Source: Chloroflexota bacterium (lineage in GTDB: Bacteria; Chloroflexota; Dehalococcoidia; Lucifugimonadales; UBA3495). From it: a DNA stretch of 25,090 nt. Every line of letters starts with the position of its first letter. Positions within the stretch are counted from its first letter, which is position 1. The stretch spans positions 1 to 25,090 of the forward strand of contig JADFFS010000031.1 in the NCBI GenBank assembly GCA_022568195.1, written 5' to 3'. Of the stretch, positions 22,710 through 25,090 are shown piece after piece. The notes beneath the pieces are model-generated. The model had not been told where the DNA came from. It ran no database searches and saw only the letters and a program-made list of their open reading frames with translations. The translations under genes were made by a program, and so were the position numbers.

Positions 22710-23522
22710 TCAGCCCTCGCTGAAATCCGCCAAAGCAGCTCCCTGGTACTCCCGGTATAAATCGCCTAGAAGCTGGTAGATGTTCCAGTCGTTGAGTATC
22801 GGGGAGTTCAACGGCTCGTACTTCTTGGTTTTCGGGTCGTAGATTGCCACCTCGGGGGGGCTAACCGGATAGTCGCCTTGGCACAGCATGACCATCCGCT
22901 TGGACGGCTCCGTCCCCAAGGGCACGTGAAATCTATAGGTCCCGTCGTTGCCCTTCCTGACATCGGGCGAGACTCCCAGTCCCTCGAACTCGGCCATCTC
23001 CTGGGCCAACCGGCTCTGCCCCACGGTGGTGGTGTACCACTGGGCGGCGTCCGGCGCCTGGGGGACAAGCTGGTCGTGGGGCAAAACTTCCCATCCCATG
23101 GGTTGGTAACGGCCGCCGGCGATTACGAAGGGCAGTATCTCGACGCTGCTACCCGACATTACACAGATGGGGGTGATGAGCTTGTCCAATTCCATCTTCG
23201 GGTCGTCCACCTCCTCCATCGCGGAGAGGATGTCCCCTCCGCTGGGGAAGGGCATGCCCAAAGGATGCTTGTGCCAGACGCCCAGGTAGTTGACCTGGTA
23301 ATACTGGAATAGCAGGTTCAGGACGGCCTGCAGATATGGCGTGTCTTTGGTGAAGTGGTGCTGTGACCGGTCCGCCTTGGGCCCGGGGCCGGTGGCGTGG
23401 GTGATGGCCGTTCGCTGGGAATCCTTGAATCCCACCAATATCCCACCGGTTTCAGCGTCGGGAAATTTCCGGCACTCCCACTCCATGGTCTCCAGCGCCC
23501 TCTGAGATACCACGTATTTCAT
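22710..23522 (-). CDS. JAB/JAMM (MPN+) metalloprotease fused to a C-terminal UEV/UBC-fold (E2-like, apparently non-catalytic) domain
   Basis: 270-aa ORF. It has the JAMM active site 'ETGGILVG' (Glu) and 'WHKHPLGMPFPSGGD' (HxHx7SxxD). The C-terminal ~120 aa carry a UBC-like 'RLAQEMAEFEG...TYRFHVPLG...RMVMLCQGDYPVSPPEVAIY' core that lacks an HPN-Cys. Confidence 0.8.
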   Translation of the reverse strand: MKYVVSQRALETMEWECRKFPDAETGGILVGFKDSQRTAITHATGPGPKADRSQHHFTKDTPYLQAVLNLLFQYYQVNYLGVWHKHPLGMPFPSGGDILSAMEEVDDPKMELDKLITPICVMSGSSVEILPFVIAGGRYQPMGWEVLPHDQLVPQAPDAAQWYTTTVGQSRLAQEMAEFEGLGVSPDVRKGNDGTYRFHVPLGTEPSKRMVMLCQGDYPVSPPEVAIYDPKTKKYEPLNSPILNDWNIYQLLGDLYREYQGAALADFSEG

Positions 23523-23575
23523 GGGATCGGCCGTTCCCTTCCGGGAGCGCCACCGCAGTGTGAAAATCCCCCCAA

Positions 23576-23596
23576 CCCCCCTTTGTTAAAGGGGGG
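23576..23596. repeat. perfect 9-bp stem hairpin CCCCCCTTT-GTT-AAAGGGGGG in the E1/JAB intergenic spacer
   Basis: Seen directly. It could be an intrinsic terminator or attenuator for the minus-strand E1 transcript, or a protein-binding palindrome. Confidence 0.4.
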
Positions 23597-23611
23597 CCTT
23601 GCCCCAAAAGT

Positions 23612-23686
23612 GTCATCCTGAGCGCAGCGAAGGATCTTCCTCGCGTAGTTCACCAGGGGGAGACCCTTCGACAGGCTCAGGGTGAC
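23612..23686. repeat. nested inverted-repeat element (outer 12-bp stem GTCATCCTGAGC/GCTCAGGGTGAC, inner 6-bp stem CGAAGG/CCTTCG) in the E1/JAB spacer
   Basis: Seen directly. The outer stem is perfect with one G-U wobble when read as plus-strand RNA, and has a C-A mismatch on the minus-strand transcript. Confidence 0.4.
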
Positions 23687-23760
23687 ACGCTGGGGGCGCC
23701 TTTGAGGTAAAGCTACATAGGAGGGCGAGGGGGGATTTAATCCACGTTGACAGGCCATTC

Positions 23761-24999
23761 TCATGACCCGCTCTCGGTCTGCCCGATAATAATGTCGGAG
23801 CCAGGCCCGCAAGACGGGCAGTTTTCGTTCTTGACGACCCGGACAAAGGTTCGGGCCATGGGCTGCTCGAACAACTCACCATCCTCGGGCCGGGCTGCGT
23901 TGGTCCAGATAATCATATCGGCGTTGATGTCTTCCAGTGAGGTCTCTACGTCACGCAGCAGGGTCAGCAGGGCCACCTTGGCGTGGATCAAGGCGATGAA
24001 GGAAACGTCCAAACCCAGGCCCGGCTCGGCTTGGAACCCGGTGTCGTCGGTGTAGTCCACCACCTGATCGCTGGAGATGTTGCGCATGGTGCCGGCCATA
24101 CCCTGCCGGACGCAGGCGTAGCATCCCGCATTGCCCGGAATGACCCGGATCACCTCGCCGGCAAAGGCCCGCTCGTACACGCCGCCGTAGACGGCGGGGG
24201 TGCCCGAGGCCAGGCAAGCCTCGTTTATCAGGTATCTGGAAAGCTCGGTGTCGGTGGCCACTATCACCAGATCGCTCTCCGACACCACCGAATAGAGCAG
24301 GTCGTCATCTTCGGTTATGTCAACTTCGTGGCACTGAACGGAGGCCATAGGGTTGTGCTGTAAAATCCGGTCCCGCACTGCCCTGGTTTTGAACCGGCCC
24401 ACATCGGCCAGCCCGCAAACGTGGCGGGAGATGTTATGGGCCTTCAATCGATCGAAGTCGATCAAGCTGAAGTTTCCTACCCCGGCCTTAGCCAGCTCTA
24501 AGGCGGCAATCCCGCCCCCGCTCCCCATGCCGACCACGCAGACCACCTTGTCCGCCAGAGCCCGGTTGTCGAAGATTCCTTTGACCCGGCTGAACAGGTC
24601 CGTCTCCAAGCGGACTACCTCTATACCACATTCGATGGCCGTCGGGGACTCCGGGCTATAGAGAAAGGCCCTTAAAGGGTTTTCCCGGGGGTCTTCCGAG
24701 GTTCGGTCCCCAGCAATCAGCAGGAAGGGGGTATCGGCAGGCAGACCCCTAACGGTGTTTGTCGACGGGTCCTCGTCCCGTGAGACCAGTACGGCGTAAC
24801 AATTCAGCGGTTGCCCCGGTGTGTGGGGCAGGTACTGGGGTGAATCTCCTTGGCGGTTGATGGTGATCGCCAATTCATCCTGGTGTAAGACGGCGGAAAG
24901 GTCCGCCAGCAACACGGCTTCCCCAACATTCGGTGAAATGCCGCGCTCCAAGGTCTGGAATATGGACTGCTCCGCGGCTTCGTCAAGGACAACAAACAT
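23761..24999 (-). CDS. ThiF/MoeB-type ubiquitin-like activating enzyme (E1) with N-terminal E2-like region; probably N-terminally longer than annotated and continuing beyond the window end
   Basis: Rossmann adenylation motif 'VVGMGSGGGIAALELAKAGVGNFSLIDFDRLKAHNISRH'; 'DLVIVATDTELSRYLINEACLASGTPAVYGG'; two CxxC motifs ('CYAC', 'CPSC'). The N-terminal 'HTPGQPLNCYAVLV' resembles an E2 HPN-Cys site. No SD precedes the ATG at 24999, and no in-frame stop occurs up to position 25090. Confidence 0.8.
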   Translation of the reverse strand: MFVVLDEAAEQSIFQTLERGISPNVGEAVLLADLSAVLHQDELAITINRQGDSPQYLPHTPGQPLNCYAVLVSRDEDPSTNTVRGLPADTPFLLIAGDRTSEDPRENPLRAFLYSPESPTAIECGIEVVRLETDLFSRVKGIFDNRALADKVVCVVGMGSGGGIAALELAKAGVGNFSLIDFDRLKAHNISRHVCGLADVGRFKTRAVRDRILQHNPMASVQCHEVDITEDDDLLYSVVSESDLVIVATDTELSRYLINEACLASGTPAVYGGVYERAFAGEVIRVIPGNAGCYACVRQGMAGTMRNISSDQVVDYTDDTGFQAEPGLGLDVSFIALIHAKVALLTLLRDVETSLEDINADMIIWTNAARPEDGELFEQPMARTFVRVVKNENCPSCGPGSDIIIGQTESGS

Positions 25000-25090
25000 A
25001 GGGCGCGTTATCTCGTTGGAAGAGTTGGCCGATGGCCTGAGGATTGGCCTCCGGATGAACGATGGCGGCAGGTACCCTTGCGTGCGGCAG

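What the first reader, a model, noticed from the sequence alone, without database searches (positions are those of the whole stretch)
22710..25090. Ubiquitin-like conjugation/deconjugation module: (E2-like)-E1 fusion followed by JAB-UEV fusion, truncated at the window edge (Cap2/Cap3-like, possible CBASS type II or other Ubl-transfer defence operon)
On the minus strand, a ThiF/MoeB-family E1 (two CxxC motifs, GxGxxG adenylation fold) is followed by a JAMM metalloprotease with intact EGG...HxHx7SxxD catalytic residues.

The E1 ORF has an N-terminal ~140-aa region with an 'HTPGQPLNC' segment resembling an E2 HPN-Cys active site. It has no SD before its annotated ATG, and no stop codon occurs in its frame through position 25090. 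It therefore very likely continues upstream, as in E2-E1 fusion proteins like CBASS Cap2.

E1 plus JAB (plus E2) operons in bacteria are established as antiphage or regulatory Ubl-transfer systems: CBASS type II Cap2/Cap3, Bil and related systems. Here the expected partner genes (cyclase/effector or Ubl/target) would lie just beyond 25090.

The JAB partner is atypically long because of its fused UEV-like domain. That differs from canonical ~160-aa Cap3 and may mark a distinct subtype.
Basis: partly seen in the sequence, partly recalled or inferred. Interest (0 to 1): 0.75.

Follow-up and report, generated by a model that had tools for sequence, protein, structure and literature searches.

The report
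Orphan E2–E1–JAB protein-tagging operon
An uncultured Chloroflexota chromosome carries a rare three-gene ubiquitin-style tagging and untagging module (an E2, an E1, and a JAB peptidase fused to a dead E2). It has no ubiquitin-like protein and no CBASS cyclase, and in most relatives it sits next to a membrane-scaffold adenylate cyclase, so this machinery may have a use not yet described.

Summary

- **The E1 is not an E2-E1 fusion.** On longer contigs with identical proteins, a separate 368-aa zinc-finger-E2 gene ends just past the window edge. E1 homologues start at the same Met.
- **The 'HTPGQPLNC' segment is not conserved**, and the N-domain is not E2-like.

It is also not CBASS. No CD-NTase, effector or Ubl was found within about 10 kb in about 50 related loci.

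The trio is a rare Chloroflexota/SAR202 family. By sequence it is closest to Cap2/Cap3 and CBASS E2. Its E1 crossover loop has no Cys (0/140) and a near-invariant Tyr, as in BubCD.

In 27 of 34 loci with enough sequence, an SPFH-family gene starts within 3 kb of the JAB gene. It is usually a Zn-ribbon-SPFH-coiled-coil-class III adenylate cyclase, and cNMP-binding regulators are often nearby.

Best reading: a split, reversible protein-conjugation module coupled to this cAMP scaffold. The modifier and the target are unknown. I rate it a new variant of a known kind.

The parts
23761..24999 (-). E1 gene (412 aa): N-terminal ~129-aa domain of unresolved fold plus a ThiF-type adenylation domain
24613..24999 (-). 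E1 N-terminal domain (aa 1-129). Not E2-like; possibly a degenerate (inactive) MPN/JAB-like domain.
   Evidence: Predicted order β-α-β-β-β-β-β-β. No Pfam or PADLOC hit. hhalign against E2/UEV gives probability below 0.2%. Against JAB it gives 1% for this subfamily. For the distant subfamily it gives E 0.002, 87 columns in register. 'HTPGQPLNC' is not conserved.
23800..24564 (-). E1 adenylation domain (aa ~146-400) with the GxGxxG motif, the ATD motif and a structural Zn site (C293, C296, C394, C397)
   Evidence: Invariant columns in A2. PDB sequence hits: UBA5 5.7e-24, ThiF 8e-22, MccB 1.3e-20, MoeB 2.8e-19, Cap2 7.7e-10.
24052..24054 (-). Codon of Tyr316 in the Cys-free crossover loop (candidate catalytic Tyr, analogous to BubCD Y370)
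   Evidence: Y316 is present in 34/36 sequences and T317 in 33/36. Across 140 family E1s, 0 loops contain Cys, 128 carry Y[T/S], and 11 of the 12 exceptions listed still have Tyr. BubCD Y370F abolishes conjugation (PMC11601596).
22710..23522 (-). JAB-UEV gene (270 aa): active JAMM/MPN+ isopeptidase fused to a catalytically dead UBC-fold domain
23073..23522 (-). JAB/MPN+ domain (aa 1-150) with E24, H84-x-H86, S94 and D97
22728..23051 (-). UEV/RWD-like UBC-fold domain (aa ~158-265) with the 'LCxxDYPVxPPEV' motif and no catalytic Cys
25000..25090 (-). E2-E1 intergenic spacer. The E2 gene (368 aa, Zn-fingers + CBASS-type E2, catalytic Cys316) starts and ends outside the window.
   Evidence: Contigs L001-L012 encode the identical E1 and JAB proteins. 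PADLOC E2 3.8e-22. PDB hit 8hsb_B, a CBASS E2, at 2e-7. H308, C316 and H319 are invariant.
23564..23738 (.). Palindromic MITE/REP-like insertion that separates E1 from JAB. The two genes overlap by 4 nt in several relatives.
   Evidence: Nested inverted repeats. The 25-nt core occurs twice in the window against 0 expected. Fold energy -102 kcal/mol, z -7.6. It is found only in the window's strain group, with 1-3 cores.
20718..22310 (+). Linked neighbour: single-pass membrane protein with a conserved ~100-aa N-terminal cytosolic domain ('ND'), a TM helix and a BNR/sortilin-type ectodomain. Convergent with JAB.
   Evidence: An ND profile hits at 1e-58 to 1e-64 in L013/14/17/19/20, and three copies in L025. 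The family is present in 16 loci.
14384..20671 (+). Linked neighbour cluster of three SPFH paralogues:
- 805 aa, Zn-ribbon-SPFH-coiled coil-class III adenylate cyclase (14384-16801)
- 517 aa (17114-18667)
- 649 aa, SPFH-coiled coil-Zn-ribbon (18722-20671)
   Evidence: Pfam Band_7 and Guanylate_cyc 1e-21. An SPFH gene starts within 3 kb of JAB in 27/34 loci. A cyclase domain is present in the six ~790-830-aa relatives scanned. Catalytic motifs are intact.

Best explanation
The window holds the last two genes of a three-gene operon, E2 -> E1 -> JAB-UEV. It is a split, Cap2/Cap3-related machine for reversible protein conjugation, from a rare family in Chloroflexota (Dehalococcoidia/SAR202).

Proposed mechanism:
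1. The E1 uses ATP to adenylate the C-terminus of a protein that has not been identified. The adenylation fold and its ATP-binding motifs are shown. A homodimer is inferred from the fold's relatives.
2. The E1 crossover loop has no cysteine and a near-invariant Tyr316. The activated carboxylate is therefore passed either through a Tyr oxyester, as in BubCD, or directly to Cys316 of the E2. This step is inferred.
3. The E2 sits on a 368-aa protein whose Zn-finger N-terminus probably selects the target. From the E2 the carboxylate goes to a target amine.
4. The JAB domain has an intact metalloprotease site and reverses or processes the linkage.
5. The fused dead E2 (UEV) domain, and possibly the degenerate MPN-like N-domain of the E1, are docking modules that hold the deconjugase on the E1/E2 complex or on the conjugate. 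This is inferred.

The module has no Ubl and no CD-NTase. It is genetically coupled to a Zn-ribbon-SPFH-coiled-coil-class III adenylate cyclase, its SPFH paralogues and ND-TM membrane proteins. It most likely controls that membrane cAMP-signalling scaffold, much as Cap2/Cap3 control the CBASS cyclase.
For: - **Closest sequence relatives.** These are CBASS E1-E2, JAB and E2 models and the solved CBASS E2 8hsb_B.
- **Trio conserved as a unit.** Within the set of related loci fetched, JAB is found in 52, E1 in 47 and E2 in 35 (many contigs are short). The order E2-E1-JAB is the rule, and E1/JAB overlap by 4 nt in several loci.
- **Crossover loop.** 0 of 140 loops contain Cys, and Tyr is conserved. 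BubCD Y370 is essential.
- **Coupling to SPFH/cyclase.** 27 of 34 loci with at least 1 kb downstream have an SPFH-family gene starting within 3 kb, typically 37-80 nt away and tail-to-tail. The gene is co-directional in L017 (upstream) and L032 (downstream). The genes upstream of E2 differ from locus to locus.
- **Cyclase.** Domains score 1e-17 to 1e-22 and the metal, Lys/Asp and Asn/Arg motifs are intact.
- **cNMP readers nearby.** A cNMP-binding histidine kinase with a response regulator occurs in 8 loci, and a Crp-type regulator in 2.
- **More distant E1 relatives.** L028 and L029 again pair an E2-CBASS protein and an E1 with a JAB fused to one or two UEV/RWD domains, without a Ubl or CD-NTase.
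Against: - **No modifier identified.** No conserved small ORF lies within 4 kb. The C-termini of JAB-UEV, E1 and the 649-aa SPFH protein are not conserved. The cyclase ends inside its fold (…VYPVNW) with no flexible tail, so it is a poor E1 substrate.
- **Weak operon logic.** In most loci the SPFH/cyclase gene is convergent, not co-transcribed.
- **One lineage.** All loci come from one lineage and several are near-duplicates, so adjacency could be inherited synteny.
- **Exceptions.** L015, L019, L020, L021 and L026 lack an SPFH gene in the sequence held.
- **E1 N-domain unresolved.** The MPN-like assignment rests on a weak hhalign match (E 0.002, probability 14%).
- **No experimental data** exist for any member.
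Confidence: 0.5

Rival explanations
1. One reading: a CBASS type II (or Bil-like) operon cut by the window edge. Cap2 would be an E2-E1 fusion, and the CD-NTase/effector or Ubl genes would lie just beyond 25090.
Against: - Extended contigs with identical proteins show a separate E2, followed by a MacB/FtsX ABC transporter and a two-component system. There is no CD-NTase, effector or Ubl.
- About 50 related loci give the same result.
- PADLOC on 80 neighbouring proteins listed no CBASS cyclase among the 25 families shown, out of 34 matched.
- No conserved small ORF is present.
- The E1 lacks a crossover-loop Cys.
Confidence: 0.03
2. A self-standing conjugation module whose modifier is encoded elsewhere in the genome (for example a ThiS/MoaD-like Ubl, as in archaeal SAMPylation or Thermus TtuB). 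It would have no functional link to the SPFH-cyclase, and the adjacency would be inherited synteny within SAR202/Dehalococcoidia.
For: - No modifier lies in cis.
- The arrangement is mostly convergent.
- The trio occurs without SPFH genes in L015, L019-L021 and L026.
- The more distant relatives L028 and L029 have TPR/AAA neighbours instead.
- All loci come from one phylum.
Against: - Adjacency survives at least two rearrangements: SPFH is co-directional upstream in L017 and downstream in L032.
- It also survives turnover of every other flanking gene.
- Linkage spans JAB identities of about 41-62%.
Confidence: 0.27
3. An antiphage defence system of a new type, with the E1/E2/JAB trio as sensor or regulator and the SPFH-cyclase with cNMP readers as signal generator and effector. 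It would be analogous to CBASS or Pycsar.
For: - The known bacterial E1/E2/JAB families reviewed here are shown or predicted to act in defence (PMC10557695, PMC11601596).
- L015 is flanked by HicAB and ParE/Phd toxin-antitoxin modules.
- Some neighbours hit Hma and MADS methylase or ATPase models.
- L028 lies among bpMoxR/TPR conflict-type genes.
- Class III-type cyclases act in Pycsar.
Against: - The window is core chromosome: pgm, pgk, guaA, purD, purB, purC and purS.
- No relative was found on viral contigs.
- The nearby cNMP readers are a histidine kinase/response regulator and a Crp-type regulator, not toxic effectors.
- The cyclase has Lys/Asp adenylate-cyclase specificity residues.
- No defence phenotype is known.
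Confidence: 0.15
4. A MoeB/ThiF-type sulfur-carrier activating enzyme (cofactor or thiamine biosynthesis) with an unrelated neighbouring peptidase.
Against: - NCBIfam ThiF/MoeB equivalog scores are far below their cut-offs, for example 96 against 275 bits.
- No MoaD or ThiS gene is nearby.
- E2 and JAB genes are conserved and partly overlapping.
- There is no rhodanese domain.
Confidence: 0.01

Closest known systems
CBASS type II Cap2 (E2-E1 fusion) / Cap3 (JAB), and the stand-alone E2 of 'E2-CBASS' (type II short)
   Same: These are the closest sequence relatives of all three proteins:
- PADLOC E1-E2 2.6e-42, JAB 1.8e-27, E2 3.8e-22.
- Pfam E2-CBASS on the E2.
- PDB 8hsb_B CBASS E2 at 2e-7.

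Like CBASS, the operon has no β-grasp Ubl, so the C-terminus of a partner protein is the likely 'modifier'. A nucleotide cyclase is the conserved neighbour.
   Different: - E2 and E1 are separate genes.
- The E2 carries about 230 aa of Zn-finger modules.
- The E1 has a different N-domain and no crossover-loop Cys.
- The JAB carries a UEV domain (270 aa against about 150-160).
- There is no CD-NTase and no effector.
- The neighbouring cyclase is a class III (PF00211) adenylate cyclase fused to SPFH. It is usually convergent and has no C-terminal tail.
Bub (6E/DUF6527) pathway: BubCD, a JAB-E1 fusion (Ye et al., PMC11601596)
   Same: - The E1 is of similar size (412 against about 437-458 aa), with a domain N-terminal to a single adenylation domain.
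- The crossover loop has no Cys and an (almost) invariant Tyr.
- UBC-fold domains without a catalytic Cys occur in the system.
   Different: - There is no Ubl (BubA) and no DUF6527 protease (BubE).
- The E2 here keeps an invariant Cys, whereas Bub E2s use Ser.
- The E1 N-domain lacks the JAB catalytic residues.
- The active JAB is a separate protein fused to a UEV.
- Sequence similarity to BubCD is marginal (1.3e-4).
Bil (BilABCD; operon types 6C/6D)
   Different: There is no BilA Ubl. The E1 has one adenylation domain, not the IAD-AAD-CYS architecture. The E2 belongs to the CBASS type.
Eukaryotic E2-variant and MPN+/MPN- pairings (Ubc13-Mms2/Uev1a; Rpn11-Rpn8, CSN5-CSN6, BRCC36-Abraxas)
   Same: A dead UBC-fold domain is encoded alongside an active E2, to which it is weakly related in profile (hhalign E 5e-4). 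An active JAB occurs alongside a possibly degenerate MPN-like domain on the E1. This suggests the same docking logic.
   Different: These are analogies of architecture only. No interaction has been tested. The MPN-like assignment of the E1 N-domain is weak.

Membership tests
CBASS type II (Cap2/Cap3) | CD-NTase (cGAS/DncV-like nucleotidyltransferase) gene in the operon | tested here: not met
   None lies within about 10 kb on contigs with identical proteins or in related loci. PADLOC on 80 neighbouring proteins listed no CBASS 'Cyclase' among the 25 families shown, out of 34 matched.
CBASS type II (Cap2/Cap3) | Cap2 is a single E2-linker-E1 polypeptide | tested here: not met
   A separate 368-aa E2 gene has its own stop codon. 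Most aligned E1 homologues start at the same Met. The E1 N-domain is not E2-like.
CBASS type II (Cap2/Cap3) | Nucleotide-activated effector gene | tested here: not met
   No effector family was found among the neighbours. The PADLOC PycTIR/TIR-effector hits involve two members. I infer these are the two cNMP-binding regulators, which are the only pair among the 80 that share a domain.
CBASS type II (Cap2/Cap3) | Cap3-type JAB isopeptidase with intact JAMM site | tested here: met
Bil (BilABCD) | β-grasp Ubl gene (BilA) in the operon | tested here: not met
   No conserved ORF of 50-130 aa lies within 4 kb of the trio in more than 3 loci.
Bil (BilABCD) | [quoted passage not shown] | tested here: not met
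   The model shows a single adenylation domain in a 412-aa protein. No Cys is present in the crossover loop.
Bub (6E) | Ubl (BubA, often fused to the E2) and the DUF6527 protease BubE | tested here: not met
   The E2 N-terminus consists of Zn-fingers and has no conserved Gly cleavage site. Neither DUF6527 nor a Ubl appears among the neighbours' Pfam annotations.
Bub (6E) | E1 without crossover-loop Cys but with a conserved Tyr | tested here: met
   0 of 140 loops have Cys. 128 carry Y[T/S], and 11 of the 12 listed exceptions still have Tyr. Y316 is present in 34 of 36 sequences.
Bub (6E) | E2 with catalytic Ser instead of Cys | tested here: not met
   C316 is invariant within SRHIYxDGHLCLFH in the 7 aligned E2s.
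Bub (6E) | Active JAB domain fused N-terminally to the E1 | tested here: inconclusive
   The N-domain lacks the E/HxH/D residues. hhalign to JAB gives probability 1% for this subfamily. For distant members it gives E 0.002 with the alignment in register. A fold search of the isolated domain was not possible.
MoeB/ThiF sulfur-carrier activating enzymes | Score above the NCBIfam equivalog cut-off, with a MoaD/ThiS partner | tested here: not met
   Best scores are 96 bits against a cut-off of 275 (ThiF) and 83 against 449 (MoeB). The neighbours are E2 and JAB.
6A-MBL (E2-E1-JAB triple fusion + metallo-β-lactamase) | Triple-module protein and an adjacent MBL gene | tested here: not met
   NF058523 scores 58 and 46 bits against a cut-off of 320. 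The three proteins are separate and no MBL is present.
UBC-fold, UEV/RWD-type (catalytically inactive E2) | UBC fold with the YPxxPP flap and no catalytic Cys | tested here: met

The most novel reading that the evidence does not exclude
This could be a fourth, undescribed class of bacterial ubiquitination-like pathway. It would have no ubiquitin-like protein. A pseudo-MPN-E1 would work through a crossover-loop tyrosine (oxyester) and hand off to a cysteine E2 that carries its own Zn-finger target selector. A JAB-UEV would be the eraser.

Its job would be to covalently and reversibly modify a membrane SPFH-adenylate-cyclase scaffold or its ND-TM partners, and so gate cAMP signalling. That would transplant the Cap2/Cap3-CD-NTase logic onto a class III cyclase in free-living marine and subsurface Chloroflexota.
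Probability: 0.25. Interest if true: 0.85.

Novelty: new variant of a known kind. Interest (0 to 1): 0.62.

Why it matters
Bacterial E1/E2/JAB systems are regarded as evolutionary antecedents of ubiquitin signalling. The families reviewed here are CBASS type II, Bil, Bub and 6A-MBL.

- **A different combination of parts.** This trio does not meet the definition of any of them. It combines a CBASS-type Cys-E2, a Bub-like Cys-less, Tyr-bearing E1, and a JAB fused to a dead E2. The closest architectural parallels to that last pairing are the eukaryotic Ubc13-Mms2 and MPN+/MPN- pairs.
- **A different partner.** It has no Ubl. Its conserved partner is an SPFH-scaffolded class III adenylate cyclase with cNMP-binding regulators nearby, in a core-chromosome setting. 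If the link is functional, ubiquitin-like conjugation would regulate ordinary second-messenger signalling in bacteria, not only antiphage defence.
- **A testable mechanism.** It would offer a mixed oxyester/thioester cascade that can be tested directly.
- **An under-studied host.** The family lives in SAR202/Dehalococcoidia, abundant but poorly studied ocean and subsurface bacteria.
- **An annotation gap.** The three proteins are currently annotated only as 'ThiF family', 'Mov34/MPN/PAD-1' and 'hypothetical'.

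Tried and rejected
- **E1 N-terminus as an E2 domain.** Rejected. H and N of 'HTPGQPLNC' are not conserved. The secondary-structure order is wrong for a UBC fold. hhalign to E2/UEV gives probability below 0.2%. Pfam and PADLOC find nothing.
- **JAB-UEV's own C-terminal Gly (…SEG) as the conjugated end.** Rejected, because the tail is not conserved.
- **The 649-aa SPFH protein's C-terminal Gly (…NQPG) as modifier.** Not supported. Homologues end in R, G, L, A or P.
- **The cyclase C-terminus as a Cap2-style substrate.** Unlikely. The protein ends inside the fold (…VYPVNW) with no tail.
- **E2 N-terminus as a cleavable Ubl, as in BubAB.** No β-grasp signal and no conserved Gly junction; it consists of CxxC Zn modules. 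A RING-like reading rests only on a PML RING hit at E 0.024 and is not reliable.
- **A hidden small Ubl ORF.** None is conserved. The 55-aa and 90-aa ORFs next to the distant relatives are low-complexity or look spurious.
- **Single-stop read-through giving an E2-E1 fusion.** E2 and E1 are in the same frame in L007, but not in other loci such as L013. I treat this as chance.
- **The short E2 on L002/L008.** This is an artefact of an N-run scaffold gap.
- **Conserved N-domain Cys67/Cys124 as a universal catalytic Cys.** They are conserved only within the Dehalococcoidia subfamily.
- **Fold search in AFDB.** The library was not available.
- **Rfam.** Only sub-threshold chance hits fall on the palindromic element.
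- **Promoter and terminator scans.** Not above chance.
- **Two Aravind-lab reviews** (PMC5881585, PMC5938088) that might mention JAB-RWD fusions are not held in the library.

Full report
**1. What is in the window**

Two minus-strand ORFs are present at the stated coordinates.
- The E1 ORF is 23761-24999 (412 aa).
- The JAB ORF is 22710-23522 (270 aa).

The E1 matches Pfam ThiF at 3.8e-34 over aa 146-349. It matches PADLOC CBASS 'E1-E2' models at up to 2.6e-42. It has GMGSGGG, the ATD motif and two invariant CxxC pairs.

The JAB matches Prok-JAB and PADLOC JAB at 1.8e-27. E24, H84, H86, S94 and D97 are invariant in 33 homologues.

**2. The JAB's extra domain**

The domain carries an 'LCxxDYPVxPPEV' flap motif, but the position of the E2 catalytic Cys is variable. 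A profile of the domain aligns in register with the E2 domain of the operon's own E2 (hhalign E 5e-4). The only weak PDB sequence hits are E2 enzymes.

**3. The E1 is not an E2-E1 fusion**

The E1 frame is open to the window edge. Exact-sequence look-ups found 12 longer contigs that encode the identical E1 and JAB proteins.
- Upstream lies a separate 368-aa gene with its own TAG stop. The spacer is 117 nt on most of these contigs.
- In the strain whose spacer is most like the window's, the stop lies 13 nt beyond 25090.

That protein has an N-terminal Zn-ribbon, further CxxC modules and a C-terminal E2 domain.
- It matches PADLOC E2 at 3.8e-22 and Pfam E2-CBASS.
- It matches the solved CBASS E2 8hsb_B at 2e-7.
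- SRHIYxDGHLCLFH, including Cys316, is invariant.

Most E1 homologues in the alignment begin at the same MxVVLDE start.

The 'HTPGQPLNC' motif is not conserved. In 36 homologues H is kept in 9, N in 1 and C in 29. The predicted N-domain is β-α-β-β-β-β-β-β and has no profile similarity to E2 or UEV domains.

A degenerate MPN/JAB-like origin is possible. In more distant family members the motifs 'VVGVLKGR' and 'IVGYWFRS' align in register with the JAB motifs 'ETGGILVG' and 'YLGVWHKH'. The hhalign result is E 0.002, probability 14%. This is a hypothesis only. I could not fold-search the isolated domain.

**4. It is not CBASS, Bil, Bub, 6A-MBL or MoeB/ThiF**

- No CD-NTase, effector, Ubl, MBL or DUF6527 gene lies within about 10 kb on the extended contigs. 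The same holds for the related loci from genomes and metagenomes.
- PADLOC on 80 neighbouring proteins listed no CBASS cyclase among the families shown.
- No small ORF is conserved near the trio.
- NCBIfam MoeB/ThiF equivalogs score far below their cut-offs.
- The rest of the window is core metabolism: pgm, pgk, guaA, purD, purB, purC and purS.
- No relative lies on viral contigs.

**5. What kind of E1 this is**

None of 140 family E1 crossover loops contains a cysteine. Nearly all carry a Tyr in a [D/N/E]-Y-[T/S] motif, which is Y316 here. This is the situation described for BubCD. Its only invariant crossover-loop residue is Y370, and Y370F abolishes conjugation (PMC11601596).

Unlike Bub, the E2 here keeps a Cys. 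The family therefore mixes Bub-like and CBASS-like features.

**6. Family size and distribution**

- The JAB-UEV family has 78 clusters at 90% identity. The Zn-finger-E2 family has 64.
- Where a source or record names the organism, it is Chloroflexota, Dehalococcoidia or SAR202.
- A UEV-domain profile searched against 1.84 billion representative proteins finds only 63 clusters at E≤1e-3. The distant ones I checked are again mostly JAB-UEV/RWD fusions.
- More distant E1 relatives (L028, L029) also sit with an E2-CBASS protein and a JAB fused to one or two UEV domains. Their neighbours are TPR and AAA genes. They again lack a Ubl and a CD-NTase.

**7. Conserved neighbourhood**

In the window the trio is convergent with a + strand cluster.
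- 805 aa: Zn-ribbon-SPFH-coiled coil-class III cyclase.
- 517 aa: SPFH-like.
- 649 aa: SPFH-coiled coil-Zn-ribbon.
- 530 aa: membrane protein with a conserved cytosolic N-domain (ND), one TM helix and a BNR ectodomain.

Of 34 related loci with at least 1 kb downstream of JAB, 27 have an SPFH-family gene starting within 3 kb. It is mostly 37-80 nt away and tail-to-tail.

All six ~790-830-aa relatives I scanned carry a class III cyclase domain, and the marine homologues share the same cyclase C-terminus (Guanylate_cyc 1e-17 to 1e-22). The metal-binding Asp residues, the Lys/Asp (adenine-type) specificity residues and the Asn/Arg are conserved.

The block is rearranged in L017, where the SPFH genes are upstream and co-directional. 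It is also rearranged in L032, where they are downstream and co-directional. The genes on the far side of E2 differ between loci.

ND-TM proteins with varied ectodomains (BNR, PPC, cupredoxin, PsbP/DcrB, PD40) occur in 16 loci.

cNMP readers are nearby. A cNMP-binding histidine kinase with a response regulator occurs in 8 loci, and a Crp-type regulator in 2.

Caveats:
- The loci come from one lineage.
- Some are near-duplicates.
- Most arrangements are convergent.
- Five loci lack SPFH genes in the sequence held.

**8. Mechanism**

Shown:
- An intact adenylating E1.
- A Cys-E2.
- A JAMM peptidase.
- A dead E2 domain.

Inferred:
- The E1 adenylates a protein C-terminus.
- It passes the carboxylate via Tyr316 or directly to E2 Cys316, and then to a target amine.
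- The JAB reverses the linkage.
- The UEV domain, and perhaps a pseudo-MPN domain on the E1, act as docking modules. The analogies are Ubc13-Mms2 and Rpn11-Rpn8.
- The SPFH-adenylate-cyclase scaffold and the ND-TM proteins are the likely clients.

The modifier is not identified. Terminal residues of the candidates are either not conserved or buried in a fold.

**9. Verdict**

The locus is a new variant of the bacterial E1/E2/JAB conjugation systems. Its partner, a class III cyclase on an SPFH scaffold, did not turn up in the papers I could search. Public records annotate the three proteins only generically.

Noticed in passing
window 23564-23738 (between the E1 stop at 23761 and the JAB start at 23522): A nested palindromic MITE/REP-like element. 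It has 10-nt outer inverted repeats (AAATCCCCCC/GGGGGGATTT) around a 40-nt hairpin, built on the 25-nt core GTCAYCCTGAGCNNNNCGAAGGRTC. It folds at -102 kcal/mol (z -7.6). It occurs only in the window's own strain group, with 1-3 cores, which gives E1-JAB spacers of 238-459 nt and coincides with assembly gaps. In several relatives E1 and JAB overlap by 4 nt. It may attenuate JAB expression.
   Followed up: partly
window 14384-16801 (+): An 805-aa protein with an N-terminal double zinc-ribbon, an SPFH/Band-7 domain, a long coiled coil and an intact C-terminal class III adenylate cyclase. I did not find this architecture in the papers I could search. It ends exactly at the last strand of the cyclase fold, and the ending is conserved as …VYPVNW in marine homologues.
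   Followed up: partly
window 20718-22310 (+); also L013, L017, L019, L020 and L025 (three tandem copies): A family of single-pass membrane proteins. They share a ~100-aa N-terminal cytosolic α+β domain with no Pfam match, whose pattern looks PepSY-like by eye. Their ectodomains are highly variable (BNR/sortilin, PPC, cupredoxin, PsbP/DcrB, PD40 propeller). They are linked to the SPFH genes and the E2/E1/JAB trio.
   Followed up: partly
L047 6840-8837; L050 1369-3847 (marine SAR202 loci): cAMP-signalling genes cluster around the cyclase and the trio. They are a cNMP-binding histidine kinase with a NarL-type response regulator (8 loci), a Crp-family regulator, a GAF protein, and a SpoIIM-like polytopic membrane protein next to the cyclase (10 loci).
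   Followed up: partly
L028 905-9802; L029 6083-9416: More distant relatives of the E1 sit in operons that also hold an E2-CBASS protein and a JAB fused to UEV/RWD domains (two in tandem in L028, 460 aa; one in L029). Large TPR proteins, AAA/bpMoxR ATPases and β-propeller genes are nearby. The trio therefore exists outside Dehalococcoidia-type contexts.
   Followed up: partly
protein P0223 (1402 aa): A Pup-ligase-TPR-β-helix protein ends in a domain matching the UEV profile (E 1.8e-6). This suggests a link between this UEV-type domain and pupylation machinery.
   Followed up: no
L007 9881-10003: In this strain the E2 and E1 ORFs are in the same reading frame, and I saw no other in-frame stop in the 39 codons between the E2 TAG and the E1 start. 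Read-through would recreate a Cap2-like E2-E1 fusion. The frame relation is not conserved in other loci, so it is probably chance.
   Followed up: partly
L026 9896-21053: The JAB-UEV gene and the E2 gene are about 9 kb apart here. Archaeal-type pilin/flagellin-like genes and ND-TM genes lie between them, and no E1 was detected in the sequence held. The locus may be rearranged or interrupted.
   Followed up: no
window 21000-23000: G+C drops to 0.51-0.54 here, against about 0.60-0.64 elsewhere. The dip covers the ectodomain half of the ND-TM gene and the ~400-nt convergent intergenic region after JAB.
   Followed up: no
window 1-13000: Ordinary housekeeping genes: phosphoglycerate mutase, pgk, polyprenyl synthase, Sua5/YrdC, guaA, purD, a HAD hydrolase, purB, purC, DUF3105 and purS. 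The module therefore lies in core chromosome, not in an obvious mobile or defence island.
   Followed up: yes
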